Shown: positions 24,928 through 40,167 of the stretch, in pieces | Position numbering within the stretch: position 1 is the stretch's first letter | Layout: each line of letters opens with the position of its first letter | NCBI GenBank assembly: GCA_022710715.1 | Contig: JAKLGJ010000002.1 | Span: 501,453-565,452 of the forward strand | Direction: 5' to 3' | DNA length: 64,000 nucleotides | DNA from: Candidatus Omnitrophota bacterium | GTDB taxonomy: Bacteria; Omnitrophota; Gorgyraeia; Gygaellales; Profunditerraquicolaceae | Notes under the pieces: model-generated | Told to the model about the DNA's origin: nothing | The model's database searches: none | Seen by the model: only the letters and a program-made list of their open reading frames with translations | Made by a program: the position numbers and the translations under genes

Positions 24928-26151
24928 ATGGAACGGGTTAAACGCATCTTGATTATCTCGAGCGATAAGACGTTGCGCGACGTGCTGATGTTCTGTTTCG
25001 ACGGCTGGGGATATGAAGTGTTCCTGCAGGACGTCCCGGGGAACGACGTTAATCAGATCAAACGGATTTCTCCGGACGTGATCGTGGTTGACGTGCAAAC
25101 CGCGCGCAAGCCGCAGCTGGAGATCTGCCAGTTGCTCAAAGACGATTTTCTCACCGCGTTCATCCCCATCATTACCATTATCAATAAACGGCAGCTGCGC
25201 CAGCAATTGCTCGACATCCGCCAGGGCGTCGACGATTATCTGATCAAGCCGCCGGATCCGCTGGATCTGCGCATCCGCATCGAAATGGCTTTGAAGCGCT
25301 CCCAGTACAGCTATCACACCAACACGCTCACCGGGTTGCCCGGCGCGCGGATCATCGAAGAATGCGTCCGGGACAAGATCCACCAGGGTAAGCCGTTTTC
25401 CTTCGGTTACGTCGACATCGACAATTTTAAATTCTTCAACGACGCCTACGGGTATCACAAAGGCGATAAAGCGATCATGCAGGTCGCCTATATGCTTTAC
25501 ACGGTGATCAAAGAAGCCGGCAACCCGGAGGATTTTATCGGGCATATCGGCGGCGACGATTTTGTTTTTGTCACCACGCCGGAGAAATACGCGGCGATCT
25601 GCCGCAGCTTCATCGAGCAGTTCGACACGCTTATGCCGTTTCATTATTCGGCGGAAGATCGTGATCAGGGATTCGTGATGGCCCGGGACCGCACGCATAA
25701 GGTGCGCAAGCTTCCGTTGATGAGTTTATCCATTGCCGTGGTCAACTGCAGCGAGTCCCAGCCGTTCAAGAGCCTGGTAGAGGTCAGCGACAGAGTGGCG
25801 GAGATCAAGGGATATTTGAAAGCCCAGCCGGGCAGCAAATTCATGGCGGATCGCAGAAGCGGCGATGCCGTTAACGGCGCAGAGCCGCAATCTGCCGGTC
25901 CGGCGCCTGCGGAAAAGCGCTCCCGGACGCATAGGCCGCTGGGACAGATTCTTATCGAGCGCAAATGTATTACTGTCGAGCAGCTGGACGAGGCGTTGCG
26001 CGTCAACTGGCATCGCGGGGTAGCCCTGGGCGAGATACTCAAGGAATGCGGATATATCAAAGATCCGGATCTGCAAAGCGCTCTGGAAGCGCAAAAAGCA
26101 CTTTCTGCGCCGGGTGGCGAAATCGTCCCGCGGCCGCAGATGCTTAATTAA
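24928..26151 (+). CDS. REC + GGDEF-like (GGDDF variant) + C-terminal tandem MshEN-like motif protein
   Basis: REC domain; GGDEF fold with HIGGDDF in place of GGDEF/GGEEF; C-terminal LGQILIERKCITVEQLDEAL and LGEILKECGYIKDPDLQSAL repeats. Confidence 0.75.
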   Translation: MERVKRILIISSDKTLRDVLMFCFDGWGYEVFLQDVPGNDVNQIKRISPDVIVVDVQTARKPQLEICQLLKDDFLTAFIPIITIINKRQLRQQLLDIRQGVDDYLIKPPDPLDLRIRIEMALKRSQYSYHTNTLTGLPGARIIEECVRDKIHQGKPFSFGYVDIDNFKFFNDAYGYHKGDKAIMQVAYMLYTVIKEAGNPEDFIGHIGGDDFVFVTTPEKYAAICRSFIEQFDTLMPFHYSAEDRDQGFVMARDRTHKVRKLPLMSLSIAVVNCSESQPFKSLVEVSDRVAEIKGYLKAQPGSKFMADRRSGDAVNGAEPQSAGPAPAEKRSRTHRPLGQILIERKCITVEQLDEALRVNWHRGVALGEILKECGYIKDPDLQSALEAQKALSAPGGEIVPRPQMLN

Positions 26152-26336: not shown

Positions 26337-26819
26337 ATGTGCCCGAGCAATCTGTTGCATCTACTGGCGATACCGGCGGTGTTTATCGCCGTGATCCATT
26401 CCTATAAGCGGCAGCGGGACAATGCCGGGGCCAACGCGCGCATACTTTCCGGATTGCTGCAGGCGCCGGCCGAGATAAACGGTTTTTGGAACATCAATTT
26501 TACCCTGGAGGGGCTTTACCGCAATCGCAAGGTCGGTTACGCTTACGTCCTTTCTTCCCACGCGCGCAGCCCCTATTGCAGCCTTTTCATCGAACCGCGA
26601 TTCTCCGCGCAGAATCAAAAAACGCCGGTTTTTCAGTGGAGCTATCCCCGTCCGACCCGCAATACGGTATTGAGGGGCGGGAAAATTCACTATTCCCGGG
26701 AAGATATTGTTGAGGGTTTTGTCTGGGGCGGTCTGGCGGTTATGGATAAGTTTGAAGCGCAGAAGGTTCTTGAAGAATTGAGCCAGGCCGCGGAAATAGT
26801 GGAAAAAAAGCAGCAATAG
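26337..26819 (+). CDS. hypothetical membrane-anchored protein
   Basis: 160 aa; N-terminal TM. Confidence 0.4.
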   Translation: MCPSNLLHLLAIPAVFIAVIHSYKRQRDNAGANARILSGLLQAPAEINGFWNINFTLEGLYRNRKVGYAYVLSSHARSPYCSLFIEPRFSAQNQKTPVFQWSYPRPTRNTVLRGGKIHYSREDIVEGFVWGGLAVMDKFEAQKVLEELSQAAEIVEKKQQ

Positions 26820-26821: not shown

Positions 26822-26850
26822 TTGACAATTTCTGCAGCCTATGCTATACT
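26822..26850 (+). promoter_or_regulatory. sigma70-type promoter TTGACA-17-TATACT
   Basis: ttgaca 26822-26827, 17-nt spacer, tatact 26845-26850; in an AT-rich gap upstream of giant gene A. Confidence 0.55.
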
Positions 26851-26917
26851 TTGACAAATAAGCATAAGACCTTTGTTTTGAGAAGGTTTTGCGTCTGAAC
26901 TAAATCAAGAATAACGC

Positions 26918-26967
26918 CACGGTTCTTGATAAGAGCAGGTTCTTATCAACGGATCGTGGTTTTTTTA
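26918..26967 (+). promoter_or_regulatory. terminator/attenuator-like hairpin + T7 within the 5' leader of giant gene A
   Basis: ccacg / ttgataag paired with cttatcaa / cgtgg, then ttttttt; located between the predicted promoter and the RBS. Confidence 0.4.
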
Positions 26968-27025
26968 TTGGCATGTAAAATACTTTAGTAAAGATTTAAT
27001 GAATTAACCAATAAAGGAGAGGCAG

Positions 27026-30000
27026 ATGAAGATGATGCGCAGAGTTATGGCAGTGGTGGTGGGATTTTGTTTACTCCTGGAGCAGACCGGATTCGCTCAA
27101 GTCGCTCCGCAATTCAATGTCCCGGCATACCTCAACGGTTATGTGGCTGCGGATAAATTCCGTCCGGTTCAATTGCGTTCGATCTCTCTGGGCCAGGATG
27201 CCCAGGATCTGAACCTCTATCTCGACGCCGGAGACGCCAGGAATATCTCTTCCCGTCAGGCCAAGGAATCCGCGCGCCAGCTTCTGGAATATTTCCGCGT
27301 CGGCCTCGCTTTGCCCAACCAGTCTTTCTGGGTGAATCTGCGCCCGGATGCGCAAGACAAGATCCTGGACATGTCGCTGGAAAGAACCGACATGGGAAAA
27401 ATTCTGCTGGAAGCCGATCTGCAACTTAAGAAAGATCTGGCTGCCTTCACTTCTCCGGATACCCGCGAGGGCAAGCAGTACTGGAACCGGCTTTACGCCA
27501 GAGCCGAGCAGATCTTCGGACCGGACAATATCACCATTCCTACGATTACCCGGCCCTGGATCGTTCCGGGCGAGATCATCCTGCGCCAGAGCCAGGAGAG
27601 CGCCTACATTTATAAGGCTACCCTGAAAGTGATGCTCGAGCAGGATTGGTTCGCGCAGCCGGATGCCGCGCTGGGCATCAGCGCCGCAGTCATGGCTGAC
27701 AAGCGGGTTCAGGAACTTAACGCTTATTCATCCGAATTGATCCGCACGCATATCCTTCCTAAATTAACCGCGGAAGTCAACTCTTCGCGCAAGTACGCCG
27801 CTTTGCGCCAGGTCTATTATTCGCTCATTCTGGCGCAATGGTACAAGCGGCAATTTCAGGGCAAAGACAACGCCTATGCGAGGCGCATCGACAGCCGCGA
27901 TCTGTCCGGCCTGGAATCGCGACACGCGTGGTCAAAAACCACCGCTTTTAATGCTTACAAGAAATCATTTTCCGAGGGTGAATATAAGAAAGAGGAAATG
28001 GTACGCAGCGGCAAAAATGTGATCGTGCACCGGTATTTCAGCGGCGGCGTGAGCGTGGTGAACACCATGGCCGCGCAGAACAGCGTGAGTAACCAGGTAT
28101 TCACCAGCAACAACGCGGCATTGACCGAACCGTTGATCGCTTATTCCGCCCAGACCGACGAGGTCACTCCCGCGCAGCAGAGCGAGGTCGCGGTCAAGGA
28201 TACTGAAACCCAGGAAGAACCGGCGGGCCGCCTGGAAAAAGGCTGGGTCATTGCCAACCATATCCTGGTTTCTTTCCACGTGGCGTTCATCGTTTCTCTG
28301 TTGAGCCTGCCTGTAGCCGAGATGTTCAGCAAATGGGATGTCCTGCAATACGTGTTTGCCAGCGCGGAAACTCCTTTGAGCGCGTTGTTGTGGTATATCG
28401 GCTGGCACAGCGGCATCGCCCTGCACGAAATGGGCCATTACCTCAAGGCGGTGAAGACGTCCGCTTTGAGAGCCGAACTGCTCCCGGCAGCAGAGGCAAA
28501 GATGCGCCAGGGTTTTCTGGGTAGAATGAAGTGGTACGCAGAGATGTTCGTGAAAATTCCCTGGGGTAAATTCGAAGGGGTGAAGAAAGTAGGCAGAGGC
28601 ATTGCCGCTAATTATTATCCGGATGCGCCATTCAACGCAGCAGTTGCCGCAGAAGGACCCCGTTTCAGCGGGAAAGTAGCCAAGCTTACCCTGCCTGCAG
28701 GCATAGGGTTACTGGCGGCTGGTCTCTTTGCCCAGACTGTGCCGGCTTTTGCCGGTATAGGCGATGCTCTGGTTTTCCTGGGCAGAATGTTTTTCGGTAT
28801 CGGCGCGATCTCTTTTCTCGATTACAAAATGGCTGATCCCGGTAAGCTTGCCGAGTTTGACGAGCGCGAGCGCAAAGCCGCGGAAAAAGCCAAGGCTGTT
28901 ACCGCAGAAACAGTGCAGGCCGAGCAAATCTCCTGGAAGGATCAGATGGGCGACGTTAAGAAGAAAATGCTCCGGCAGCGCATTCAGGAAGCGGAAACCC
29001 GCTGGGGCGTATCTATTCGCGCTCCCTGGGGTTGGCGCAACTCCGGTATGGGCGGACGCCATACCGAGAAAGAATACCCGCAGAGCAACATTTCCATGCA
29101 GGAAGCCATGTTCATTCCTTTAAGCGCTAAAACCTACGAAGACGCGCAGCGCATGGTCGTAGAGCTGCAAACCCGGTTGCATCAAATCATCAATAAAGTC
29201 GAAGGCGCCCGCGTTGAAGGTATCGGTCTGGAAGGCGGTCTGGCTACGTATATTGAAAAGGATCCCAGCGATCTGGTTCCTGAACAGCGCTTATGGCGCT
29301 TGATGGTGCAGGCAATCAAAGAGTCGGGTTTTAAACCCGGCGAGGATGTGGTTCTGGCATTCGACCCGGCGGCAAGCGAGTTGGAAATCGCCTATCGCGA
29401 AAAGTACGAACAGCCTGATGCGGTAGGTATGTATCTGTTCTGGCGCGACGCCAACCAGGTAGTGATGAGCCGCGATCAGTTGATGGATCTGTATGATTGG
29501 GCGATCGAGAACAATATTCCTTTGATCTCCGGCGAGGATTTATTCGCGGAGGACGATTATGAAGGATGGAAGCTGGCCATGGCCAAGTATGGCGATGTGA
29601 TGTTCATCATCGGAGACGATGTGGCTACTACTAATGCCCACACCGTAGAATTCCTCGCGGACGAAAAGCTGATAAATACCCTGTTGGTCAAAGCCAATCA
29701 GATCGGCTCATTAGCCGAGACATTGCTGGCTATGTTGACCGGCCTGGGCAAGGGGTTGGAAATGGTGGTTTCCCACCGTTCCAAGTCTCCCAATGACGAT
29801 ATGGAAGCGCAGGTAGCATTGTCGGTTAACGCCGTAGGGTTAAAAGCCGGCGGCGGCGCCAATACCGAGAGATTGGTCAAGTACGGCGCTATTATCAAGA
29901 TGATGAAAGAAGCCATCCTGGATGCGGCCATGAAAGACAGCAGGGGAGTGACCAACAAGGAGCTGGAGCAGCAGGTGACCGCGGTTATTGATCAGCTGCA

Positions 30001-31270
30001 GATCACCAGGATCGTCGCGTACGAGGAATCGACCAATGCGGGTATCCCGACCGCAGGTGCGACGGTGAGCTTCGGCATTCCCGGGAGCTTGAGGTACGAG
30101 AGTCTTTTCAAGATGTCGGGTTCCACTCCGCTGGGCACCAGCGCCGGCACCGGAGAAGCGATCCATCTGATCGATTCTAACTTTGCCCCGAATGAACTGA
30201 CCGCGCAGTATCCCGACCTGTTCGACAAAAGCGCCACCGGAACGTATTCGTTCAAAAAGTCGGTTGACGATAATCAGATTATCGCCAAAGACGATGCCGT
30301 CCTTACGGAGTTTTATAAGAGGGCGAACCGTTACAGCGGCAAAGGCGTATTGAACGCGGTTTCCAACGTGGAAAAGATACTGGCGGAGAAGTTTGTCGGC
30401 AAAAAGTTATCGGAGTTGGGCGGCATTGAGAATATAGATAAGGTTTTGCTGGAAGCGGAATTCGAATTAGGCGTGGCGCGCGGTTTGATCAGTCGCGATG
30501 CGCCGATGGATGAAAAGATCAAGTTCATGCAGCGCAAAGGTAATATCGGCATGAATGCGCTTCTTTCCACATCCCTGGCCTTGGGCCGCATGGTTACGGC
30601 AATGCAGGGTAAGGAATTGTGGCAGACTTTGCGCGAGACGATGGCGACGACCATCGCCCGCACTATCGCCGAAAGCGAAGGCGTCAGCGCGCAGGAGCTG
30701 GAGCAGAACTATACCTTCGAACAGCTGGTCGAAAAGTTGCAGAAGTTCGAACAGGCGCGCAAGGAGCGCAAAGACGAACGTCCGTTGTATGCGTATCTGG
30801 AAGCGGCGTTGCCGGTATACGGCGAGGCTGACGGCGGGTCGCAGGTGCAGGACGGCGGATTGAAGACCGATGCGCAGGAAGTCGTCGAGCAGCAGACCGT
30901 GGCGGTTGAGCAGCAGGCTGCTGCGGCGAATCAGGCTCCGGAAGAGCTCGGCGGCGTGGATCTGCGCGCTTTGCCGGTGTCGGTCAAGCCGGTCGATGCA
31001 TCGCGGGTCGTTCCGGTTAATTCCGCGCTGCTGAAAATGTCCCTCCAGGACCTGGATAAGACCTGGACGGATTTGCGCGGCAAAGTGGAAGGGCAAGCGG
31101 TCCCGTACCAGCAGCTCAAAGAATACGTGGCTGCCTGCAAGTCCCGCGCTGATGCCGCAAAGCAGCTGGCGCAGGTGCGCCGTTACATCGGCGAACTGCT
31201 CAAGCTCGAGGAAGAGAGGGCTATCGCATCCTCTTCCGAGATGCATGAGATTGTCGGTATTATCGGCTAA
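27026..31270 (+). CDS. giant secreted/membrane protein A: signal peptide + conserved N-domain + 4-TM region with HEMGH motif + circularly permuted enolase-like domain + Q/E/A-rich tail
   Basis: AAAGGAGAGG RBS; 1414 aa; enolase barrel motifs (AFDPAASE, IGDDVATTN, LLVKANQIGSL, VVSHRS, LVKYG) precede enolase N-domain motifs (ITRIVAYEESTNAGIPT.., PLGTSAGTGEAIHL, RYSGKGVLNAV). Confidence 0.85.
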   Translation: MKMMRRVMAVVVGFCLLLEQTGFAQVAPQFNVPAYLNGYVAADKFRPVQLRSISLGQDAQDLNLYLDAGDARNISSRQAKESARQLLEYFRVGLALPNQSFWVNLRPDAQDKILDMSLERTDMGKILLEADLQLKKDLAAFTSPDTREGKQYWNRLYARAEQIFGPDNITIPTITRPWIVPGEIILRQSQESAYIYKATLKVMLEQDWFAQPDAALGISAAVMADKRVQELNAYSSELIRTHILPKLTAEVNSSRKYAALRQVYYSLILAQWYKRQFQGKDNAYARRIDSRDLSGLESRHAWSKTTAFNAYKKSFSEGEYKKEEMVRSGKNVIVHRYFSGGVSVVNTMAAQNSVSNQVFTSNNAALTEPLIAYSAQTDEVTPAQQSEVAVKDTETQEEPAGRLEKGWVIANHILVSFHVAFIVSLLSLPVAEMFSKWDVLQYVFASAETPLSALLWYIGWHSGIALHEMGHYLKAVKTSALRAELLPAAEAKMRQGFLGRMKWYAEMFVKIPWGKFEGVKKVGRGIAANYYPDAPFNAAVAAEGPRFSGKVAKLTLPAGIGLLAAGLFAQTVPAFAGIGDALVFLGRMFFGIGAISFLDYKMADPGKLAEFDERERKAAEKAKAVTAETVQAEQISWKDQMGDVKKKMLRQRIQEAETRWGVSIRAPWGWRNSGMGGRHTEKEYPQSNISMQEAMFIPLSAKTYEDAQRMVVELQTRLHQIINKVEGARVEGIGLEGGLATYIEKDPSDLVPEQRLWRLMVQAIKESGFKPGEDVVLAFDPAASELEIAYREKYEQPDAVGMYLFWRDANQVVMSRDQLMDLYDWAIENNIPLISGEDLFAEDDYEGWKLAMAKYGDVMFIIGDDVATTNAHTVEFLADEKLINTLLVKANQIGSLAETLLAMLTGLGKGLEMVVSHRSKSPNDDMEAQVALSVNAVGLKAGGGANTERLVKYGAIIKMMKEAILDAAMKDSRGVTNKELEQQVTAVIDQLQITRIVAYEESTNAGIPTAGATVSFGIPGSLRYESLFKMSGSTPLGTSAGTGEAIHLIDSNFAPNELTAQYPDLFDKSATGTYSFKKSVDDNQIIAKDDAVLTEFYKRANRYSGKGVLNAVSNVEKILAEKFVGKKLSELGGIENIDKVLLEAEFELGVARGLISRDAPMDEKIKFMQRKGNIGMNALLSTSLALGRMVTAMQGKELWQTLRETMATTIARTIAESEGVSAQELEQNYTFEQLVEKLQKFEQARKERKDERPLYAYLEAALPVYGEADGGSQVQDGGLKTDAQEVVEQQTVAVEQQAAAANQAPEELGGVDLRALPVSVKPVDASRVVPVNSALLKMSLQDLDKTWTDLRGKVEGQAVPYQQLKEYVAACKSRADAAKQLAQVRRYIGELLKLEEERAIASSSEMHEIVGIIG

Positions 31271-31368
31271 ACGGCCGGTAGATCAATGATGTTCAAGGAA
31301 GCCACGGTTCTGGATTGAGCGATCAGTCGAGCACCGTGGCTTTCTGCTCTGTGGAGAGGCGTGTGATC

Positions 31369-34300
31369 ATGCATAGAGGCATCGGATCCATCCGAAAAAC
31401 AGTCTCCATTCTAACCAGCCTGGTTCTGCTGCTGCAGACGGCAGGCTTCGCTCAAGTTTTTTCTCCGTCCGCGGTCAATGCGGATGTTCCCGCATCACGC
31501 CTGTCCGGCTGCTGCCGGCCCATGCATCTGCGCTGGCTGGCAGTGGATCCGGATAACCGGTCATTCAACGTCATTCTGGACACCGGAGACGCAACCGGTA
31601 TTTCCCCCCGACGCCTGCGCGAAGAATCTCAAAAACTCATCGAATATTTCCTCATCGGTCTGGTCCTGCCCAACAGCTCGTTCTGGGTAAATCTACGCCC
31701 CGACGCGCCTTTGCGCGTTATTGATCCTTTGCTGGAGCGCACCGACGTCGGCAGGATACTGCTGGAAGCCGATGTGCGTTTGAAAAAAGATCTGGCCGCA
31801 TATACGTCTCCCGCCACCGCGCAAGGGCGGCGTTACTGGGATGCGTTGTATAAACGGGCTGCAGAGCTGTTTGGTCCGGCGCAGATAACCGTTTCCACCG
31901 CTTCCCGTCCCTGGATCGTGCCCGGCGAGATCATCATCGGCGAAGGCGAACAGGGAGCGTATGTGTATAAGGCGACTCTGGACGTGCGCTTGGAAGACGA
32001 TTGGATCGGCCGTTCGGATCCTGTGTTGAAACAGCTCAACGCGTACGGCGCGCAATTGCTCAAGCGGGAAATCCTGCCCGGGCTGATCAAAGAAGTGAAT
32101 ACCTCGGAGAAATACGCTGCTCTGCGCCAGGTGTACTATTCGCTGATCCTGGCGCAATGGTTCAAACTGCATCCGGCTCAGGCCGGCGCTTCCCTGTCCG
32201 CGATCGTCGACGCAGCAGATCCCGTCGGACTGGCTTCGAGCATTCCCTGGTCCAAGAATACATTTACTGCCGAATATCGCCGGTCCCTGCAGGCGGGCGA
32301 ATACAACCAGAAAGAATACGTGCCGACTTCCGCGGGCTTGAGTCTGCGTCAGTACGCCAGCGGAGGCGCGCTTTTCAACGGCAGCAGCCGGGTTCTTTCG
32401 GTGTCGCCGGGATTGGGCCGGGCAGTTCTGCATGCGCCGGCGCCGTACCGGCAGGCGCTCGAAGTTCCTTTTCCGCAGGCGGTGCGCGTTGTGCTTTCCC
32501 GTCGGTCAAACGTTGACACGCATGCGGATGAGCCGGATGGCGGTACCCAGGCGCAGGAAGAGATACGCATTATGGCATTGTACGGCGGTTTGCAGCGGTT
32601 GACGAATTTTGTGCTGAAAGAATCCCGCCCGTCGGCAGCGCGATTGCTGCCGGATATCGCCAGGTCGGGGCACGCGCAGATGGTCGCCGCGGTAGTGCCC
32701 GAACTGATGCGCGCCGCGGCTTCCAGTAACCGGCCCGATATCCGGGCGGCTGCCAATGAATGCCTTGCCGCGGTCCGGTCCCCGGCTCAGACGGCTGCAC
32801 TCGAGCCGGTTGCGCCGGAGTCGTCTCTGCAGCCGGCTGCCGTTTCCGCGGTAGACCGGGAAAACCTCGCCGGTTTTCTCCACGCGATGGGCGGCCGGGA
32901 TATCAACGCAGCCATTGCCGCATGTGCGGCCATGCGCGCATTGTTCAAAGAGAAGCCGGGTTTGTGGGCAGACCGGCAGGTCGTTGAAGCTGTCGGGCCT
33001 GTTCTGAAAAGCAGTTTTCCGAGAGCGCGATTGGCGCTGATGGAAGCCGTTGAACAAAGTATCAGCGCTCCGGTCAGCGATGAGCTTCTTTTCCTGGTTT
33101 TAAAAGGAATGAATGATCGCGACGACCAGGTGAGCGAAAGAGCGCTTTTCGCGTTCGCGCGCATACTCGCCGCGGAGCCGCGCCCGGGTCATACCGGTGA
33201 GGCGCTTGCCCGGATCATGGATGAGCCGGAATCTTTCGCTATTGCCGGGTTGGTATTCGACCTTATCGCCAGAAAGGGCGCCGGCGAGCTTGAACCGCTC
33301 TGGCAGTTGCACGCCGGAAACCGGGCGCACTTGCGCCGGGCGCTGGAGCAGAATCTCGCCGATGCCGCTTTTCCGGGATTGTATACGCTAAACGACGTTT
33401 CCTGGCGCGGGCTGGCCGAACAACTGATTGAATACAACCGTCTTACCGCCGATGCGGACGCGCCGCTGCGTTCGGTGATCGTCAAGATGCTCCTGGCCCG
33501 CGAAGGCGCGGTGTCTTTCGGCCGGATGAAATGGCTGGTGGCTGAATCGCTTTCGTATTTCCACGTCAATCTCGCGCATGCGCTGGAAAAAACGCGTTCG
33601 GTCGCCCTGCGCCGGCAGCTGATCAAGGCTTCCGGCGTGAGTACCGCGGACAGCATCGAAGTGTTGCGCACCCGGGCCATCCGGTTCGCGGCCATCGCGG
33701 ACAACGATACGAGTTTCGATTCTTCCAGAGGCGTGGCCGGACGTATTCGCAGCGATATCCATCTGCGTCTTTCTCCCCAGGACTTGCGCGCGGTCAGAGC
33801 CTACCGCACATTCCTCGACGGAGACGCTTCCGAACTGACCGCTCTGGGGTATACGATCAGTGAATCCGACCGCGTCCCGCCGGAACGCAAGGCGCGGGTG
33901 GCCGCGGCCGCCGAAGATCTGCTGGACGCGCTGGAGGAGATATTCGGCGAAGAGAGCGGGAAAGGGGTGAGGGCGTATTTCGCTCTGGCGAAAAAGATGT
34001 TCCGGGACCATCCGGTTCTCGCGAATGAGATCCAGGAAATTCTTGATTTTTCCGGAAAGAAAGATCTGGCGTATCTGGAGCGGATCAATGCGGCCAGGAG
34101 CCTTCTGGCGGAGGTCGGCCGAACCATGCGCTCGACGGAACTGATGATGAGTATCGGGCTGGATAACGCGCTGGAGAACCTGTATTACGGGGGCGTTGCC
34201 GCTTTCGAACCGTCGGTGGATTACGCCGATGATCTGCAGACGCTGAAGGTTGTGCGCAGCCTGATGGAAGCGGTGCGGTTGAACGGTTACTGTCGGGAAG

Positions 34301-36342
34301 AGATCGCGATGATTGTTTTGCAGGTCGAAGCGGTGCTGGCGAGAGGGATACGCAATCAGGAAGACCGGCTGGAGATCTATGCGCTGTACCGCCGGCTGGA
34401 GCGGATGATCAAAGGTATTTCCCAGGAGACGATCAACGATTATCAGGAGATCGCGCAGCGCCTGGGCGCTGCCGCGGGCAAAGCCGATGCTCCCTGGGTC
34501 GGCGAATTCTCCGCTCAACTGATGCGCCGGGACGTGGTGTACTGGCTGGCCAGCGTGACGGAGAAAGCGATGCAGTCGGCCATGTCTTCCGCGGGGATCA
34601 GCGGCTGGCAGGTGATCCAGGAAGGCGTCGCGCGGGGAAGGATCAAAGTGATCGTCGATAATGAGGATTTCGCCGGCCTCAAGGATGATGAAATAGCGGT
34701 CGCCGCGCAGCTTCCCGACGACAGCCGGTTTCTTATTCATGCCAGAGGGATCATTACCACCGGGGTGGAATGTTTGCTGTCTCATCCCGCAGTCCGGGCG
34801 CGGCAGCAGAAAACGGTTTTCGTCTCCGCTCCATCTCTGGATGAGGCAAAAAAATACGCCGGGCAATGGGTAGAGCTGTCAGCGCAGGGAGAGCAGGTGA
34901 TCATCCGGCCTCAAGCTGAAGCCGAGGCGCAGCGGGAAGCTTCGATCGTGCCGAAGAAAAAGCCGGCCGGGGCGATTGCACCGGTGGAGCCTGACCGCGC
35001 CTGGAGTGCGGCAGTGGTTCTCCCGTCGGATTATACGCCGCAGCGGGTAGGTAATAAAGCGTATACCTTGAGCCGGATACCGGATAATCTTATCGCCGGG
35101 CAGAGAACGGCCCGTCATTTCAGTTTGAGCTTCGCTTTTTTCGATGCGGTGTTGGCGCTTGAGATTAATCGCGCCCGCAAACAGGAGTTGCAGGTTTTGC
35201 AGCAACGGGTGATCCAGGCAGCCCGGGATCAGGATGTGCGTGAGGATTTACGGCGTATGCGGGCTTTGGTGGAAGAGCTCGAGCTGCCGCAGCAAACGCT
35301 GGGAGAAATCGTCGCCACCGCGACGGAGTTGTTTGGCCGGGAAACGCCGCTTTTCCTGCGCTCCAGCACCAATGCCGAAGACCTGGCGGATTATTCGGGC
35401 GCAGGGGTGTATGATTCTTTCGGCGCGGTAACGCTTTCTCCGCCGGACATCGCCCGCCATGTCAAAAAGGTATGGGCTTCAGTCTGGAATGAGAAAGCGT
35501 TTTTCGACCGCCAGGCGAATGCTATCGATCACGCCGCGGTGCGGCCGGCAGTCTTGATCCAGGAGATGCTGAATCCGGAGTATTCCTTTGTCATCCATAC
35601 CCGGTCGCCGGTCAACGGCAATGACGGGGCGGTGCTCATCGAAGCGGTGCAGGGATTCGGGGAAACGCTGGTCAGCGGCCTGGACGCTTACGCCGGGCAG
35701 GCGTATCGTTTCAGCGTGGATAAGTCTACCGGCGAGCTCAAGTTGATCTCGTTCGCGAATAAGAGCCGCAAGATCGTTGTGCGCGCCGGCCGTTTCAACG
35801 ATGCCGCCGCGGATTATCACGATGACTGGCTGGTGACGCCTGAAGGACGGCAACTTCTGCAGCGCATAGGCATGGCCGCGATCAAACTCGCGGACGCCGC
35901 AGGCGCCGCCCAGGATATCGAGGGCGTGATCGTCAATGACCGGGACGGGCGCACAGTCGGATTCGTCCAGACGCGCGCGCAGGTTATGCTGAATGCGGAC
36001 GGCGGCAATCTTCTGGGCGGAGTGGATCTGCGCCTGTTATCCGCCGACAATGCCGCCGCGGCCGGCGCGCAGATCCCGCGGGCGCGCGGGATATTCCTGG
36101 AGCGGTCCGCCGCCGAATGCGACGGGATCTGTCGCGCTCTGCTTGCCGGATTGGAACGTGACCCGTCGTCGCTGGAAGGATTGCGGGAATACGTGGTGGA
36201 GATGGGCGTCCGGGCGGACGCAGAGCAGCGGTTGAAAGACGTGTCCATCTGGTTGATGAACCGGCTGCGCATGGAAGAGGCGGCTGTGATGAAAACTCCC
36301 GCGCCGCTGCGGGAAGCGCTTGTCTGCCTCGGCGCGAGGTAA
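31369..36342 (+). CDS. giant secreted protein B (paralog of A): signal peptide + conserved N-domain + HEAT/ARM-like helical repeats + C-terminal PEP-utilizing-enzyme ATP-grasp (PPDK_N-like) domain
   Basis: GGAGAGG RBS then ATG 31369 (ORF opens 31315); N-domain clearly homologous to A (e.g. SFWVNLRPDA, RPWIVPGEII, KYAALRQVYYSLILAQW identical); C-terminus has LRSSTNAEDLADYSGAG and VLIQEMLNPEYSFVIHTRSPVNGNDGAVLIEAVQGFGETLVSG. Confidence 0.85.
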   Translation: MHRGIGSIRKTVSILTSLVLLLQTAGFAQVFSPSAVNADVPASRLSGCCRPMHLRWLAVDPDNRSFNVILDTGDATGISPRRLREESQKLIEYFLIGLVLPNSSFWVNLRPDAPLRVIDPLLERTDVGRILLEADVRLKKDLAAYTSPATAQGRRYWDALYKRAAELFGPAQITVSTASRPWIVPGEIIIGEGEQGAYVYKATLDVRLEDDWIGRSDPVLKQLNAYGAQLLKREILPGLIKEVNTSEKYAALRQVYYSLILAQWFKLHPAQAGASLSAIVDAADPVGLASSIPWSKNTFTAEYRRSLQAGEYNQKEYVPTSAGLSLRQYASGGALFNGSSRVLSVSPGLGRAVLHAPAPYRQALEVPFPQAVRVVLSRRSNVDTHADEPDGGTQAQEEIRIMALYGGLQRLTNFVLKESRPSAARLLPDIARSGHAQMVAAVVPELMRAAASSNRPDIRAAANECLAAVRSPAQTAALEPVAPESSLQPAAVSAVDRENLAGFLHAMGGRDINAAIAACAAMRALFKEKPGLWADRQVVEAVGPVLKSSFPRARLALMEAVEQSISAPVSDELLFLVLKGMNDRDDQVSERALFAFARILAAEPRPGHTGEALARIMDEPESFAIAGLVFDLIARKGAGELEPLWQLHAGNRAHLRRALEQNLADAAFPGLYTLNDVSWRGLAEQLIEYNRLTADADAPLRSVIVKMLLAREGAVSFGRMKWLVAESLSYFHVNLAHALEKTRSVALRRQLIKASGVSTADSIEVLRTRAIRFAAIADNDTSFDSSRGVAGRIRSDIHLRLSPQDLRAVRAYRTFLDGDASELTALGYTISESDRVPPERKARVAAAAEDLLDALEEIFGEESGKGVRAYFALAKKMFRDHPVLANEIQEILDFSGKKDLAYLERINAARSLLAEVGRTMRSTELMMSIGLDNALENLYYGGVAAFEPSVDYADDLQTLKVVRSLMEAVRLNGYCREEIAMIVLQVEAVLARGIRNQEDRLEIYALYRRLERMIKGISQETINDYQEIAQRLGAAAGKADAPWVGEFSAQLMRRDVVYWLASVTEKAMQSAMSSAGISGWQVIQEGVARGRIKVIVDNEDFAGLKDDEIAVAAQLPDDSRFLIHARGIITTGVECLLSHPAVRARQQKTVFVSAPSLDEAKKYAGQWVELSAQGEQVIIRPQAEAEAQREASIVPKKKPAGAIAPVEPDRAWSAAVVLPSDYTPQRVGNKAYTLSRIPDNLIAGQRTARHFSLSFAFFDAVLALEINRARKQELQVLQQRVIQAARDQDVREDLRRMRALVEELELPQQTLGEIVATATELFGRETPLFLRSSTNAEDLADYSGAGVYDSFGAVTLSPPDIARHVKKVWASVWNEKAFFDRQANAIDHAAVRPAVLIQEMLNPEYSFVIHTRSPVNGNDGAVLIEAVQGFGETLVSGLDAYAGQAYRFSVDKSTGELKLISFANKSRKIVVRAGRFNDAAADYHDDWLVTPEGRQLLQRIGMAAIKLADAAGAAQDIEGVIVNDRDGRTVGFVQTRAQVMLNADGGNLLGGVDLRLLSADNAAAAGAQIPRARGIFLERSAAECDGICRALLAGLERDPSSLEGLREYVVEMGVRADAEQRLKDVSIWLMNRLRMEEAAVMKTPAPLREALVCLGAR

Positions 36343-36440: not shown

Positions 36441-36467
36441 ACCTATCCTTATCGGGTAGGTTTTTTT
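36441..36467 (+). promoter_or_regulatory. terminator-like hairpin + T7 in leader, followed by two further hairpins (36487-36512, 36505-36525)
   Basis: acctatcc-ttatc-gggtaggt then ttttttt; cttgcgca..tgcgcaag and ttgccc..gggcaa stems. Confidence 0.4.
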
Positions 36468-36531
36468 GTTATTGGCACCTTGCGCAGATCGGAATTGCGC
36501 AAGTGTTGCCCCTGTGGGCAAGGAGGGCGGA

Positions 36532-36783
36532 ATGAAAAAGCACAGCGTGGGAGTGGTGGCGATCCTGGTGAAACGGCGCGCGCAGACCGCGCCGCACGTC
36601 AACGATATCCTTACCCAGTACGGGGAGATTGTGATAGGCCGCATGGGTTTGCCGCATCATAAACAGGATATGAACATCATTACCCTGATCGTCGACGCGG
36701 ATACGGATCAGATCGGCGAGTTGACCGGCAAGCTGGGTATGCTCAAGGATGTTACGGTCAAGTCTACCCTGGCTAAAGTCTGA
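36532..36783 (+). CDS. TM1266-like putative [FeFe]-hydrogenase system regulator (small ACT-like protein)
   Basis: GGAGGG RBS; 83 aa; pattern VVAILV..R....VNDIL..YG..I.GRMG.P.......II.L.VDA..D.I..L.GKLG; adjacent to hydG/hydF. Confidence 0.5.
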   Translation: MKKHSVGVVAILVKRRAQTAPHVNDILTQYGEIVIGRMGLPHHKQDMNIITLIVDADTDQIGELTGKLGMLKDVTVKSTLAKV

Positions 36784-36821
36784 TCTCGCGGGCGCCGTCG
36801 AGGCGTAAGAAAGCGGAAAGC

Positions 36822-38297
36822 ATGATGGAGACGATCAAGAGAGAAGAAGTGGAGCGTTATCTGGAGCGGGGCAGGGATTTTATCGACGATGCCCTGATCG
36901 AACGCCTGCTGGAAGAGAATAAACAGCCCGATGCGCGGGCTGTGCGGGAGATCATTGCCCGGGCCCTGGAGATCAAGACGCTGGAGCCTGCGCAAACCGC
37001 GGCGTTATTGCAGGTGCAGGATGATGCGCTCTGGGAAGAGATTTTCCAGGCCGCCGCGAAGATCAAGACCAAAGTGTATGATAACCGGGTGGTGACGTTT
37101 GCGCCTTTGTACGCCGCGAATAAGTGCGTGAATAATTGTTCTTACTGCGGGTTCAGGCGGGAGAATCCGGCGATCCAGCGCCGGGTGCTGGATTTCGACG
37201 CGATCCGGGAAGAAACGCGCGTGCTTGCCGGCAAGCTTGGCCACAAACGCCTGATTTTCGTGTGCGGCGAACATCCGGAGTCCGGGGCGGATTATATCGC
37301 CGAGAGCATGCGCACCATTTACAGCGTGAAAGAAAAAGTGCGCAACGGACGCGGAGAGATCCGCAGGGTCAATGTCAATGCCGCGCCGATGAGCGTGGGC
37401 GATCTGATCAAGATCAAAGACGCCGGCATCGGCACCTTTCAGGTTTTTCAGGAAACCTATCATCACGCCACCTATGCCCGGGTGCATCCCGCCGGAACGG
37501 TCAAATCGGATTTCGGCTGGCGGCTGTACGCGTTGCACCGGGCGATGGAAGCCGGTATCGACGACGTGGCGATCGGCGCTCTGTTCGGTTTGTACGACTG
37601 GAAATTCGAGGTTATGGGCATGCTCTTCCACGCCCGGGACCTGGAAAAGCGTTTCGGCATCGGTCCGCACACGGTTTCCATGCCCCGGATCGAGCCGGCA
37701 GCCAACACGCCGTTTTGCGACCACGCGCCCCACCGGGTTAGCGACCGCGATTTCAAACGCCTGATCGCGGTGCTGCGTCTGTCTATTCCGTATGCCGGGA
37801 TGATCATTACCTGCCGGGAGCGCCCGGGGTTTATTCGGGATGTTATCCCGATGTGCACGCAGCGGGACGCTTCCAGCCGCATCGGCGTGGGCGCGTATAC
37901 TGGCCAGCAGCAAGAGCAGCAGCAGGATATCCAGCAATTCATCCTGGGAGATACGCGTTCCCTGGATGAAGTTATCCGCGAGCTGGCCTCTCTGGGGTAT
38001 ATCACTTCATTCTGCACCGCAGGGTACCGCTGCGGCCGCACCGGCAAGAACATCATGACCCTGCTGCGCACCGGGAAAGAAGGCTGTTTCTGCAAATTGA
38101 ACGCCATCCTGACCTTCCAGGAATGGCTGGAAGATTTTGCCAGCCGGGAAACCAGGGAGATCGGCGAGCGGATCATCGCTCAAGAGATCGCGCAGGTTAC
38201 CGAGCGGGTGCCCGCGTACTTTACGCCGGAGCTGCTGGAGAAAATGCTGGAATTTCACCGCCGGATCAAATCCGGAGAACGGGATCTGTGTTTTTAG
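36822..38297 (+). CDS. hydG: [FeFe]-hydrogenase maturase HydG (radical SAM tyrosine lyase)
   Basis: 491 aa; CVNNCSYC radical SAM motif; ThiH/HydG-like length and C-terminal Cys cluster. Confidence 0.8.
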   Translation: MMETIKREEVERYLERGRDFIDDALIERLLEENKQPDARAVREIIARALEIKTLEPAQTAALLQVQDDALWEEIFQAAAKIKTKVYDNRVVTFAPLYAANKCVNNCSYCGFRRENPAIQRRVLDFDAIREETRVLAGKLGHKRLIFVCGEHPESGADYIAESMRTIYSVKEKVRNGRGEIRRVNVNAAPMSVGDLIKIKDAGIGTFQVFQETYHHATYARVHPAGTVKSDFGWRLYALHRAMEAGIDDVAIGALFGLYDWKFEVMGMLFHARDLEKRFGIGPHTVSMPRIEPAANTPFCDHAPHRVSDRDFKRLIAVLRLSIPYAGMIITCRERPGFIRDVIPMCTQRDASSRIGVGAYTGQQQEQQQDIQQFILGDTRSLDEVIRELASLGYITSFCTAGYRCGRTGKNIMTLLRTGKEGCFCKLNAILTFQEWLEDFASRETREIGERIIAQEIAQVTERVPAYFTPELLEKMLEFHRRIKSGERDLCF

Positions 38298-40164: not shown

Positions 40165-40167
40165 ACC

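What the first reader, a model, noticed from the sequence alone, without database searches (positions are those of the whole stretch)
27026..36342. Pair of giant paralogous secreted proteins carrying glycolysis-derived domains
Two adjacent genes encode 1414-aa and 1658-aa proteins. Their signal peptides end almost identically (..QTGFAQV / ..QTAGFAQV). Both share a roughly 320-aa N-terminal domain of unknown function with long identical stretches (KYAALRQVYYSLILAQW; SFWVNLRPDA; RPWIVPGEII). After this domain they diverge. Protein A has a 4-TM block with a membrane-embedded HEMGH motif followed by an enolase-like domain. Protein B has about 700 aa of HEAT/ARM-like helical repeats followed by a PEP/pyruvate-binding ATP-grasp domain of the PEP-synthase/PPDK N-terminal type. 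Both accessory domains therefore relate to phosphoenolpyruvate chemistry, yet they sit in exported or membrane proteins behind a strong promoter and a structured leader. I cannot map this architecture to any described system. It looks like a candidate novel envelope-associated module.
Basis: partly seen in the sequence, partly recalled or inferred. Interest (0 to 1): 0.9.

Follow-up and report, generated by a model that had tools for sequence, protein, structure and literature searches.

The report
Capped enzyme-carrier proteins of Omnitrophota
These two large genes belong to a very large, undescribed protein family of the uncultured phylum Omnitrophota in which the same export signal, the same N-terminal domain of unknown fold and the same C-terminal domain bracket interchangeable, apparently active cytoplasm-type enzymes (here an enolase and an ATP-driven dikinase), which raises the question of where these bacteria use such enzymes.

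Summary
ORF A (27026-31270, 1414 aa) and ORF B (31369-36342, 1657 aa) share a Sec-type signal peptide and a ~320-aa N-domain (47% identity, E 7e-93). A carries a membrane block with HEMGH and a circularly permuted enolase with all checked catalytic residues intact. B carries helical repeats and a phospho-His domain followed by an ATP-grasp domain, with no PEP-binding barrel. Protein A is found identical on at least 8 independent contigs, so it is not a chimera.

The pair is not a stand-alone PEP module. The N-cap defines a family of 7,743 clusters, almost all Omnitrophota. It is always at the N-terminus and almost always paired with the C-cap. Cargo between the caps runs from about 150 to over 7,000 aa. 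It includes PGK, GAPDH, TPI, aldolase, enolase, PPDK, phosphoglucomutase, kinases, methyltransferases and HEAT/TPR. One member holds most of lower glycolysis in a single chain. The N-cap has no Pfam match and no PDB fold match.

Best reading: the caps are shared targeting or assembly modules for exported enzyme cargo, related to the described giant "Archaeovorin" proteins. Localisation and function are inferred, not shown.

The parts
26822..26850 (+). Promoter-like site, TTGACA-17-(TG)TATACT
   Evidence: 11 of 12 consensus matches with an extended -10 TG, directly after the stop of the upstream ORF. It is a consensus match only.
26916..26966 (+). Leader hairpin (CCACGGUUCUUGAUAAGA...UCUUAUCAACGGAUCGUGG) followed by U7. 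It looks like an intrinsic terminator or attenuator about 60 nt before the ATG of A.
   Evidence: The leader 26857-27030 folds at -47.2 kcal/mol, z -4.25. The motif CCACGGTTCTTGA recurs before B and before family genes in L004 and L006. No Rfam match.
27026..31270 (+). Gene A, 1414 aa: signal peptide, N-cap, TM/HEMGH block, permuted enolase, C-cap
27026..27097 (+). A signal peptide (aa 1-24, predicted cleavage after GFA)
   Evidence: Positively charged n-region, 12-aa h-region and a G-F-A|Q site. The same features occur in 156 of 179 family members. No dedicated predictor was available.
27098..28060 (+). A N-cap domain (aa 25-345)
   Evidence: 47% identical to B. 351 or more Omnitrophota homologs. 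AF2 pLDDT 84.9. No fold or sequence match in the PDB. No Pfam match.
28241..28819 (+). A membrane block (aa 406-598) with about 4 hydrophobic segments; HEMGH at 28424-28438
   Evidence: Hydropathy and charge analysis. 54% identical in the ortholog L006, including HEMGH, and absent from all other members checked. No Pfam or PDB match.
29081..29911 (+). A enolase TIM-barrel domain (aa 686-962)
   Evidence: PF00113 E 7.6e-48. Aligns to residues 158-411 of solved enolases. H159, Q167, E168, E209, D246, E290, D317, K345, H373, R374, S375 and K396 equivalents are all conserved.
29993..30775 (+). A enolase N-terminal-type domain placed after the barrel (aa ~990-1250), i.e. a circular permutation; Ser-loop GTSAGTGEA at 30134-30160
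   Evidence: PF03952 at 42.1 bits against a cutoff of 35 on the isolated segment. Local alignment to E. coli enolase residues 2-140.
30944..31267 (+). A C-cap domain (aa 1307-1414), starting LGGVDLRALP
   Evidence: Similar to the C-terminus of B. HMM E 4.5e-30. AF2: disordered motif followed by 4 helices, pLDDT 72.7.
31301..31345 (+). A-B intergenic hairpin, GCCACGGTTCTGGA...CACCGTGGC, followed by a weak T-run. It is the second copy of the leader motif.
31369..36342 (+). Gene B, 1657 aa: signal peptide, N-cap, helical region, phospho-His domain, ATP-grasp, C-cap
31369..31452 (+). B signal peptide (aa 1-28, predicted cleavage after GFA)
31453..32385 (+). B N-cap domain
32386..34590 (+). B helical region (~735 aa). 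HEAT-like, but only below Pfam thresholds.
   Evidence: HEAT_2, HEAT_EZ and HEAT at E 5e-4 to 3e-3, all below the gathering scores
34606..34926 (+). B swivelling phospho-histidine domain; catalytic His1139 at 34783-34785 (LLSHPAVRAR)
   Evidence: PF22973 GWD1_pHisD, 29.5 bits against a cutoff of 27. The His aligns with the catalytic His of rifampin phosphotransferase 5fbs.
35197..35994 (+). B ATP-grasp nucleotide-binding domain (PPDK_N)
   Evidence: PF01326 E 2.2e-31. Best PDB matches are rifampin phosphotransferase and PEP synthase, E 2.5e-27.
36013..36339 (+). B C-cap domain, starting LGGVDLRLL

Best explanation
A and B are two tandem paralogs of a very large, Omnitrophota-specific family of modular 'capped carrier' proteins.

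Shown here:
- Every member starts with a Sec-type signal peptide and a conserved ~320-aa N-cap of unknown fold.
- Almost every member ends with a conserved ~105-aa C-cap, which has a GGxDF/LRxLP motif followed by a small helical bundle.
- Between the caps lies interchangeable cargo.
- In A, the cargo is a membrane-embedded HExxH block plus a circularly permuted enolase with an intact active site.
- In B, the cargo is a helical scaffold plus a His-phosphotransfer/ATP-grasp dikinase module of the glucan-water-dikinase or rifampin-phosphotransferase type. B lacks a PEP-binding domain, so it most likely phosphorylates something other than pyruvate.

Inferred:
- The signal peptide sends the polypeptide through Sec and is cleaved after GFA.
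- The two caps, which are under far stronger conservation than the cargo, act as a common targeting, retention or assembly module. They bring many different enzyme cargos to the same extracytoplasmic place, which could be the periplasm, the cell surface or the contact zone with a host or prey cell. This is similar to the way dockerins or TPS domains give unrelated passengers a common address.
- A would be the membrane-anchored member and B a soluble one.
- Both genes are driven by a strong promoter through a shared hairpin/U-run leader that may act as an attenuator.
- The family is the small-to-medium-sized counterpart (0.4-7 kaa) of the giant multi-enzyme 'Archaeovorin'-type proteins already described for this phylum.
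For: Family and architecture:
- N-cap homologs are nearly all Omnitrophota.
- 7,743 clusters at 50% identity were found. In 149 of the best 150 the N-cap starts within the first ~20 residues, and it is always a single copy.
- The C-cap is terminal in 59 complete GTDB-locus proteins. Three of the four apparent exceptions are split genes and the fourth may be one too. It is also terminal in 117 of 142 representatives.
- Natural 'empty' members consist of N-cap, linker and C-cap only, e.g. P0050.

Export signal:
- 156 of 179 members have an SPase-I-type site near residue 25.
- The h-region is 8-14 aa, too short for a membrane anchor.
- There is no conserved twin-arginine motif.
- 123 of 179 members have no TM-like segment in the cargo.

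Caps more conserved than cargo:
- The N-caps of unrelated-cargo paralogs are about 50% identical, with 41-59 invariant columns.

Cargo diversity and integrity:
- Cargo includes PGK, enolase, aldolase, TIM, GAPDH, PGM/PMM, transketolase, transaldolase, FBPase, GPI, ROK, PPDK, guanylate kinase, NUDIX, HD, methyltransferases, HEAT and TPR.
- Catalytic residues of the enolase, TPI, GAPDH and PGK cargos are conserved.

Novel caps:

Genuine genes:
- Protein A is identical on at least 8 contigs.

Link to known giants:
- The domain vocabulary and the localisation puzzle are the same as in West-Roberts et al. 2023 and the 2026 preprint.
Against: - No localisation data exist. Signal-peptide cleavage and export are predicted from sequence features only; SignalP and DeepTMHMM were not available.
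- Much of the cargo needs ATP, NAD+ or SAM (PGK, GAPDH, kinases, ATP-grasp, HATPase_c, AAA, DnaJ, methyltransferases). These are not expected outside the cytoplasm, so extracytoplasmic catalysis is biochemically awkward.
- In A, the K/R-rich loop 471-550 (14 K+R) and the K/R-rich stretch after TM4 fit a cytoplasmic location by the positive-inside rule. That would put the enolase and C-cap inside the cell if only three segments span the membrane.
- No conserved transporter or receptor gene was found next to family genes; the recurrent neighbours are housekeeping genes.
- An interaction between the N-cap and the C-cap was not tested.
- The cysteine co-occurrence test for a disulfide in the C-cap was inconclusive.
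Confidence: 0.5

Rival explanations
1. Membrane-tethered cytoplasmic metabolon. The N-terminal hydrophobic segment is not a cleaved export signal, or only the N-cap is exported. The cargo enzymes stay on the cytoplasmic face. There the caps assemble glycolytic and other enzymes into a membrane-associated complex that channels substrates in these very small, metabolically very active cells.
For: - The cargo is overwhelmingly cytoplasm-type and cofactor-dependent, with intact active sites.
- Members that fuse consecutive glycolytic steps suggest channelling: L023 has GAPDH, PGK, an aldolase-like domain, TPI and enolase; L062 has enolase fused to PPDK.
- In A, the charge distribution fits a cytoplasmic enolase if one hydrophobic segment does not span the membrane.
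- Both preprints note that predicted extracellular locations of such domains 'seem highly unlikely' or may reflect missed TM segments.
Against: - The N-terminal segment has the classic features of a signal peptide: basic n-region, 8-14-aa h-region and a small-x-small site.
- 69% of members, B included, have no further TM-like segment that could return the chain to the cytoplasm.
- A positive n-region predicts an N-in/C-out orientation.
Confidence: 0.2
2. Prey- or host-directed effectors. The caps are a secretion and translocation signal for delivery into, or onto, the cell to which the epibiotic or predatory Omnitrophota cell is attached. ATP, NAD+ and sugar phosphates are available there, and the cargo rewires or drains the victim's metabolism.
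For: - Omnitrophota are inferred to be host-dependent or predatory nanobacteria.
- The pattern of a signal peptide, a conserved N-terminal domain and a long variable passenger resembles two-partner-secretion and other effector architectures (established knowledge).
- The cargo list is effector-like in its diversity: kinases, NUDIX, HD, FHA, DnaJ, methyltransferases, metabolic enzymes.
- This reading removes the cofactor paradox.
Against: - No secretion-system genes are conserved next to family genes.
- The N-cap is not a TPS beta-helix and matches no known secretion domain.
- A carries a multi-span membrane block that is hard to reconcile with translocation into another cell.
- There is no experimental evidence.
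Confidence: 0.15
3. One reading: a dedicated two-gene envelope module built around phosphoenolpyruvate chemistry (enolase makes PEP, the PPDK/PEPS-type protein uses it).
For: - Enolase and a PPDK_N-type protein are adjacent and probably co-transcribed.
- In L062 an enolase is fused to the start of a bona fide PPDK match within one capped protein, so the pairing recurs.
Against: - B has no PEP/pyruvate-binding domain (PF02896). Its domain order (His domain, then ATP-grasp) is that of glucan-water dikinases, not PPDK or PEPS.
- All NCBIfam PEPS and PPDK scores are far below their cutoffs.
- The shared domains are family-wide caps found with dozens of unrelated cargos.
- The ortholog of A in L006 continues into other cargo (GPI-like) and is not followed by a B-like gene in the part held.
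Confidence: 0.07
4. Artefact: assembly chimera, pseudogene or spurious ORFs.
For: Family genes are repeats that often break assemblies; many database homologs are partial.
Against: - The protein is identical on at least 8 contigs from independent ENA and JGI assemblies, with identical neighbours.
- Both ORFs are uninterrupted, at 1414 and 1657 codons.
- Catalytic residues are conserved.
- Thousands of homologs share the same architecture.
Confidence: 0.01

Closest known systems
Giant multi-enzyme 'Archaeovorin'-type proteins of Omnitrophota (West-Roberts et al. 2023, bioRxiv 10.1101/2023.11.21.568195; 2026 preprint 10.64898/2026.06.07.730766)
   Same: - Same phylum.
- Signal peptide and/or TM segments.
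- Same domain vocabulary: HEAT, TPR, PPDK_N, NUDIX, HATPase_c, AAA_5, methyltransferases, PGM/PMM, ROK, TPI, GPI, FBPase, aldolase.
- Same unresolved puzzle of cytoplasm-type enzymes predicted to be outside the membrane.
   Different: - Those proteins are defined by size (10,000 or 30,000 aa and above). A and B are 1.4-1.7 kaa and the family seen here spans 0.4-7.4 kaa.
- Neither preprint, as far as read, describes the conserved N-cap/C-cap pair, PGK/GAPDH/enolase cargo, or permuted enolases.
- Whether the giants carry the caps was not tested.
Enolase (phosphopyruvate hydratase, PF03952 + PF00113, TIGR01060)
   Same: Both domains are present and every catalytic and metal-binding residue checked is conserved in A.
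   Different: - The domain order is reversed (barrel, then N-domain).
- Identity to E. coli enolase is only about 30%.
- The score is below the TIGR01060 cutoff (184 vs 300).
- It is embedded in a 1414-aa signal-peptide protein after a membrane block.
His-domain/ATP-grasp phosphotransferases: alpha-glucan water dikinase (GWD), rifampin phosphotransferase, PEP synthase/PPDK
   Same: - ATP-grasp nucleotide-binding domain and swivelling His domain with the catalytic His.
- The order His domain then ATP-grasp, and the PF22973 match, are as in GWD.
   Different: - No PEP/pyruvate barrel, so not PEPS or PPDK.
- No CBM45 or other carbohydrate-binding module was detected, so not a demonstrable GWD.
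- No rifampin-binding domain.
- The putative substrate-binding part is an unassigned ~735-aa helical region.
Common-address systems for diverse passengers: TpsA proteins of two-partner secretion (signal peptide + conserved TPS domain + long variable passenger), and dockerin-tagged enzymes of cellulosomes
   Same: The logic is the same: one conserved terminal module shared by many paralogs with unrelated catalytic passengers, behind a Sec signal peptide.
   Different: - There is a second, C-terminal cap.
- No TpsB-like or cohesin-like partner was found nearby.
- This is an analogy only, not homology.
Glycosomes of kinetoplastids (glycolytic enzymes sent to a compartment by terminal targeting signals)
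   Same: Several consecutive glycolytic enzymes carry the same terminal targeting-like elements.
   Different: - This is a conceptual analogy only.
- The elements here are large domains rather than short PTS peptides, and the route is Sec.
- No compartment is known.
- Glycolytic cargo is a minority of the family (5 of 142 representatives by BLAST).

Membership tests
Enolase (phosphopyruvate hydratase) | C-terminal TIM barrel with metal ligands D246/E290/D317 and catalytic E168, E211(209), K345, H373, K396 | tested here: met
   PF00113 E 7.6e-48. All these residues are conserved in A: E693, E736, D780, E837, D865, K889, H917, K940.
Enolase (phosphopyruvate hydratase) | N-terminal capping domain with the Ser39/42 loop | tested here: met
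   PF03952 at 42.1 bits against a cutoff of 35 on the isolated segment. GTSAGTGEA aligns to SGASTGSREA with the Ser conserved.
Enolase (phosphopyruvate hydratase) | Canonical order (N-domain before barrel) and an equivalog-level score | tested here: not met
   The barrel is at 686-962 and the N-domain at ~990-1250. TIGR01060 scores 183.9 against a cutoff of 300.
Enolase (phosphopyruvate hydratase) | Catalyses 2-phosphoglycerate <-> PEP | not testable with these tools
   Needs an enzyme assay of A residues ~680-1260.
PEP synthase / pyruvate phosphate dikinase | ATP-grasp nucleotide-binding domain (PF01326) | tested here: met
   E 2.2e-31 at B 1278-1543
PEP synthase / pyruvate phosphate dikinase | Swivelling phospho-His domain with catalytic His | tested here: met
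   PF22973 at 29.5 bits against a cutoff of 27. PF00391 is weak. His1139 aligns with the catalytic His of 5fbs.
PEP synthase / pyruvate phosphate dikinase | PEP/pyruvate-binding TIM barrel (PF02896) and the order ATP-grasp -> His -> barrel | tested here: not met
   No PF02896 hit even at E 0.1. The order is His -> ATP-grasp. All NCBIfam PEPS and PPDK scores are far below their cutoffs, e.g. 115.6 vs 883.
Alpha-glucan water dikinase-like | His domain immediately N-terminal to a C-terminal nucleotide-binding domain | tested here: met
   pHisD at 1081-1187, then PPDK_N at 1278-1543
Alpha-glucan water dikinase-like | N-terminal starch/glucan-binding modules (CBM45/CBM20) | tested here: not met
   No CBM hit in B 340-1075; only sub-threshold HEAT
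   The HEMGH motif is present and conserved in the ortholog. There is no PF02163 hit or any other peptidase hit at E up to 10, and no PDB sequence hit.
Omnitrophota giant 'Archaeovorin' proteins | Omnitrophota origin, signal peptide/TM, mixed metabolic/regulatory/HEAT-TPR domain content | tested here: met
   Searches compared
Omnitrophota giant 'Archaeovorin' proteins | Giant size (30,000 aa and above; 10,000 aa and above in the 2026 catalog) and glycosyltransferase/peptidase content | tested here: not met
   A is 1414 aa and B is 1657 aa. The largest N-cap protein among the best 150 is 7,391 aa. No GT or peptidase domain was found in A or B.
N-cap/C-cap carrier family (defined here) | Signal peptide + N-cap at residue 1 + C-cap at the extreme C-terminus, one copy of each | tested here: met
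   A and B both have them.
Two-partner secretion TpsA | TPS beta-helix domain after the signal peptide, and a TpsB partner gene | tested here: not met
   [not shown]

The most novel reading that the evidence does not exclude
Omnitrophota place catalytically competent glycolytic and other sugar-phosphate or nucleotide enzymes outside the cytoplasmic membrane, in the periplasm, on the surface, or at or inside the attached host or prey cell. They do so by means of a phylum-specific N-cap/C-cap addressing and assembly system of novel fold. This would amount to an 'exo-metabolon', a bacterial functional analogue of the glycosome, that processes host-derived phosphorylated metabolites or harvests energy there. 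A (membrane-anchored permuted enolase) and B (His-dikinase) would be two of its parts.
Probability: 0.15. Interest if true: 0.95.

Novelty: new variant of a known kind. Interest (0 to 1): 0.7.

Why it matters
If the caps are a common address or assembly module, they define how an entire uncultured phylum of ultra-small, host-dependent bacteria deploys hundreds of different enzyme passengers. They also give a simple sequence handle for studying the puzzling giant proteins of this phylum: a ~320-aa N-cap present in 7,743 protein clusters.

The cofactor paradox becomes directly testable on proteins of manageable size (1.4-1.7 kaa) instead of 30-150 kaa giants. The paradox is that intact PGK, GAPDH, enolase, kinases and even a lower-glycolysis polyprotein sit behind textbook Sec signal peptides.

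The finding also provides:
- a confidently modelled domain with no known fold;
- a natural circularly permuted enolase with an intact active site;
- a dikinase module with an unknown substrate.

Tried and rejected
1. A single-sequence scan of genome contigs with the N-domain of A found nothing, because its patterns were too specific. The repeat with alignment A2 worked.

2. A search of the large protein index with the C-cap profile returned only 14 short fragments and gave no cargo census. That tool seems to favour short proteins.

3. A combined N-cap plus C-cap alignment on P0050 for structure prediction was abandoned, because MAFFT placed the C-cap fragments onto the N-cap. The C-cap was modelled alone instead, so N-cap/C-cap docking was not tested.

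4. The AFDB50 fold library was unavailable.

6. The HEMGH block was searched against Pfam at E up to 10 and against PDB sequences without result. The M50 assignment is rejected as untestable or not met.

7. The neighbour analysis found only housekeeping synteny (gyrA/B, rsmI, glmS) and a GGDEF regulator. No secretion partner was found.

8. TM-count parity (to test whether the N- and C-caps lie on the same side) was too noisy with a hydropathy heuristic.

9. Cysteine co-occurrence in the C-cap, as a proxy for a disulfide, was inconclusive.

10. Whether capped enzymes are the only copies in a genome could not be settled:
   - All 22 Eno/TPI/GAPDH/PGK hits in 1.35 Mb of loci lie in capped ORFs, but the sample is biased toward family loci.
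   - The last database search showed only that L062's enolase cargo is closest to standalone Myxococcota-type enolases.

11. Kizina et al. 2022 (closed genome plus proteome) is not held.

12. A Tat signal was considered and rejected. A has RR, but the family consensus is K/R-variable and B has no twin arginine.


Full report
**Observation**

The window encodes two adjacent + strand ORFs.
- A is 27026-31270, 1414 aa.
- B runs to 36342. From its first ATG at 31369 it is 1657 aa. An upstream in-frame TTG at 31315 is unlikely to be the start.

BLASTP of A against B gives 47% identity over 342 N-terminal residues (E 7e-93). It also gives a second, unreported match between the last ~107 residues of both proteins (26%, E 2e-6). 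tblastn finds no further copy of either domain in the window. Protein A is encoded, identical in sequence, on at least 8 contigs from independent ENA and JGI assemblies (up to 914 kb), with B and the same neighbours beside it. The genes are therefore not an assembly chimera.

**Domain content of A**

- The signal peptide is MKMMRRVMAVVVGFCLLLEQTGFA|QV.
- The N-domain spans residues 25-345.
- After a short acidic linker comes a hydrophobic block with segments at about 406-431, 448-470, 551-574 and 577-598. HEMGH lies at 467-471.
- This block is 54% identical, HEMGH included, in the one ortholog found (L006). It is absent from all other family members.
- The block matches no Pfam family even at E = 10 and no PDB sequence. 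The M50 idea is therefore unsupported.
- Pfam Enolase_C matches 686-962 (E 7.6e-48). Enolase_N matches further downstream, and passes the gathering score when the segment is scanned alone (42.1 vs 35 bits).
- Alignments to solved enolases and to E. coli enolase show the barrel first (enolase residues ~158-411) and then a complete N-terminal-type domain at A ~990-1208. This is a circular permutation.
- All catalytic and metal-binding positions checked are conserved: H159, Q167, E168, E209, D246, E290, D317, K345, H373, R374, S375, K396 and the Ser loop.
- The protein scores below the TIGR01060 equivalog cutoff (184 vs 300). It is only about 30% identical to E. coli enolase.

**Domain content of B**

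- After the signal peptide and N-domain comes about 735 aa of helical sequence with only sub-threshold HEAT matches.
- Next is a phospho-His swivel domain (PF22973, 29.5 vs 27 bits), and then the ATP-grasp domain PPDK_N (E 2.2e-31).
- The catalytic His (His1139, LLSHPAVRAR) aligns with that of rifampin phosphotransferase 5fbs.
- There is no PEP/pyruvate-binding barrel. The order His domain then ATP-grasp is that of glucan-water dikinases, not PEPS or PPDK. All NCBIfam PEPS and PPDK scores are far below their cutoffs.
- B is therefore a generic ATP to His~P to acceptor phosphotransferase with an unknown acceptor. It is not demonstrably a PEP enzyme.

**The shared domains define a large family**

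- The N-domain has no Pfam match. It has hundreds of close homologs (44-61% identity), nearly all from Candidatus Omnitrophota MAGs.
- A pattern scan of one genome per GTDB species found 410 encoding stretches. The 78 loci kept are almost all Omnitrophota, with 4-6 or more copies in single MAGs and frequent tandem copies.
- An exhaustive HMMER search of 1.84 billion cluster representatives found 7,743 proteins (6,435 at E <= 1e-30).
- In 149 of the best 150 the domain starts within the first ~20 residues and occurs once. Protein lengths run from 410 to 7,391 aa, with a median of about 1,400. A and B are typical in size.
- An HMM of the C-terminal domain finds it at the extreme C-terminus of 59 complete proteins in the GTDB loci.
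- The four apparent exceptions were three short N-cap-only ORFs (L009, L034, L058) and one 1,883-aa protein (L035). For L034, L058 and L035, an ORF carrying the C-domain follows directly, so these are split genes. Nothing longer than 120 aa with a C-domain follows the L009 ORF.
- The C-domain is also terminal in 117 of 142 representatives. The remainder are consistent with truncation at contig ends.
- Natural minimal members (for example P0050, 608 aa) consist only of signal peptide, N-cap, a linker and C-cap.

The architecture is therefore signal peptide, N-cap, variable middle (about 150 to over 7,000 aa), C-cap.

**Cargo**

Pfam scans of the middle regions of 68 GTDB-locus members and of 38 full-length representatives gave:
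- Central carbon metabolism: PGK (9), enolase (4), class II aldolase (3), TIM (2), GAPDH (2), PGM/PMM (3), transketolase, transaldolase, FBPase, cupin-type GPI, ROK and FGGY kinases, PPDK_N/PEP-utilizers, GH94 phosphorylase.
- Nucleotide, signalling and other enzymes: guanylate kinase, NUDIX, HD, Metallophos, SAM methyltransferases, HATPase_c, AAA_5, FHA, DnaJ.
- Scaffolds: HEAT and TPR.

Many members have no Pfam match at all.

Every one lies in a capped ORF. Notable members are:
- L023 (3,609 aa): GAPDH, GAPDH, PGK, a GatZ/KbaZ-like aldolase domain, TIM and enolase in one chain.
- L075: GAPDH, TPI, PGK.
- L042: PGK, GAPDH.
- L062: a canonical-order enolase (TIGR01060 306.8 vs 300) fused to the start of a true PPDK match.

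Catalytic residues of the TPI, GAPDH and most PGK cargos are conserved.

Glycolytic cargo is nevertheless a minority, found by BLAST in 5 of 142 representatives. L062's enolase cargo is 55-62% identical to ordinary ~430-aa enolases of Myxococcota and Deltaproteobacteria MAGs. Cargo can therefore be captured from conventional enzymes.

**The caps**

- AlphaFold2 with a 58-sequence alignment gives a confident alpha/beta model of the N-cap (pLDDT 84.9, pTM 0.79).
- Foldseek gives nothing at E <= 0.001; the best TM-score is about 0.1.
- A profile search of PDB sequences is empty.
- The N-caps of paralogs with unrelated cargo remain about 50% identical, with 41-59 invariant columns. Even the signal-peptide c-region (..QxGFAQVA) is conserved.

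**Export signal**

In 179 complete members:
- 156 have a small-x-small site near residue 25;
- 155 have K or R in the first 10 residues;
- the uncharged h-region is 8-14 residues (median 12), too short for a membrane anchor;
- 123 have no TM-like segment in the cargo.

There is no conserved twin-arginine motif. By sequence these are Sec signal peptides. No dedicated predictor was available.

**Interpretation**

What is shown is the architecture, the size and taxonomic restriction of the family, the intact active sites and the novelty of the caps.

What is inferred is the function of the caps. Two invariant terminal domains are kept under much stronger constraint than the interchangeable middle, in many paralogs per genome. 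This is the signature of a shared address or assembly module. I therefore favour (0.5) the view that the caps target, retain or assemble exported cargo at one extracytoplasmic site. A would be a membrane-anchored member and B a soluble one.

The main difficulty is biochemical. Much of the cargo needs ATP, NAD+ or SAM. In A, the positive-inside rule would put the loop 471-550 (14 K+R) and the stretch after TM4 in the cytoplasm.

Two rivals follow from this:
- a membrane-tethered cytoplasmic metabolon (0.2);
- effectors delivered to the attached host or prey, where cofactors exist (0.15).

No conserved transporter or receptor gene accompanies family genes. The recurrent neighbours are gyrA/B, rsmI, glmS and, in 12 loci including this window, a GGDEF response regulator.

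**Comparison with the literature**

West-Roberts et al. (2023 preprint) describe giant Omnitrophota 'Archaeovorins' of 30 kaa and above. These carry HEAT, TPR, PPDK_N, NUDIX, HATPase_c and AAA_5 and, less commonly, TPI, GPI, FBPase, PGM/PMM and aldolase domains. The domains are predicted to be extracellular, and the authors remark that a missed TM segment might explain this.

A 2026 preprint catalogues 916 proteins of 10 kaa and above. It finds 94% with a signal peptide or TM segments, describes 'multi-enzyme metabolic clusters', and reaches the same topological puzzle.

Neither preprint, in the sections read or searched, nor Seymour et al. 2023, mentions the N-cap/C-cap pair, PGK/GAPDH/enolase cargo or permuted enolases. 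The present finding is thus a new, sharply defined variant of a known kind: the small and medium-sized capped relatives of those giants. Whether the giants carry the caps is untested.

**Regulation (side observation)**

- A near-consensus promoter lies at 26822-26850.
- It is followed by a ~170-nt leader that folds strongly (z -4.25).
- The leader contains a hairpin plus U7 at 26916-26966. Its 5' arm motif, CCACGGTTCTTGA, recurs in the A-B spacer at 31302 with one mismatch. Two occurrences were observed against 0.05 expected by chance.
- The motif also recurs upstream of family genes in L004 and L006.
- There is no Rfam match.
- It may be a shared attenuator.

**Verdict**

The PEP-centred interpretation is only partly supported. 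The real finding is a very large, undescribed capped-carrier family with a novel-fold N-domain. Its members include two typical ones here, and elsewhere whole stretches of glycolysis behind Sec signal peptides. Interest 0.7. Mechanism confidence is moderate to low and hinges on localisation.

Noticed in passing
window 26857-27025 and 31301-31345; L004 6730-6775; L006 8737-8749 and 8884-8930: A hairpin plus U-run leader element is shared. Its motif, GCCACGGTTCTTGA, occurs upstream of A, in the A-B spacer, and upstream of family genes in two related MAGs. An upstream AAUCAAGAAU could pair with the 5' arm of the hairpin as an antiterminator. There is no Rfam match. It may be an attenuator or regulator-binding RNA common to capped-carrier genes in this clade.
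   Followed up: partly
window 24928-26151, with PilZ genes just upstream at about 23457-24233: A response-regulator/GGDEF protein directly upstream of A recurs as a neighbour in 12 of the family loci. Two PilZ-domain genes precede it. This hints at a possible c-di-GMP link to these genes.
   Followed up: no
window 26337-26819: A 160-aa ORF lies between the GGDEF gene and the promoter of A. It has an N-terminal hydrophobic segment and no Pfam match. It is called as a gene in the public assemblies.
   Followed up: no
window 36466-44018: Downstream of B lies a [FeFe]-hydrogenase maturation and electron-bifurcation-type cluster: a TM1266-like ACT protein, HydG-like radical SAM, HydF GTPase, two NuoE-like 2Fe-2S proteins, and NuoF-like and larger Fe-S proteins.
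   Followed up: no
L023 9980-20806 (MAG LacPavin_0920_WC90_MAG_43_22; same as P0241): A single 3,609-aa capped protein carries two GAPDH-like domains, PGK, a GatZ/KbaZ-like aldolase domain, TIM and a degenerate enolase barrel (E168 replaced by T, K396 by G). That is most of lower glycolysis in one signal-peptide-bearing chain.
   Followed up: partly
L062 17995-21060: A capped protein has a canonical-order enolase fused to the start of a genuine PPDK match, cut off by the end of the locus. Its enolase is 55-62% identical to standalone enolases of Myxococcota and Deltaproteobacteria MAGs, which suggests cargo capture by gene transfer and fusion.
   Followed up: partly
C-cap start in A (30944-30970), in B (36013-36040) and family-wide: An invariant double glycine opens the C-cap (GGIDF/GGVDL). 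DGG motifs also recur in the linkers: EADGGSQVQDGG in A, DEPDGG and NADGG in B. C39 double-glycine peptidase domains are reported to be common in Omnitrophota giant proteins. The GG sites could therefore be processing sites. This is speculation and was not tested.
   Followed up: no
L018, L024, L037, L039, L048, L060, L071 (labelled 'uncultured Planctomycetales') and L030 (labelled 'Deltaproteobacteria'): Several contigs that carry typical family genes are labelled with other taxa in their records. This is probably misclassification or mis-binning of Omnitrophota DNA rather than true occurrence outside the phylum.
   Followed up: no
L034, L035, L058: In three loci the capped gene is split into an ORF carrying the N-cap and an immediately following ORF carrying the C-cap. 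The cause could be a frameshift, a sequencing error or a true split.
   Followed up: no
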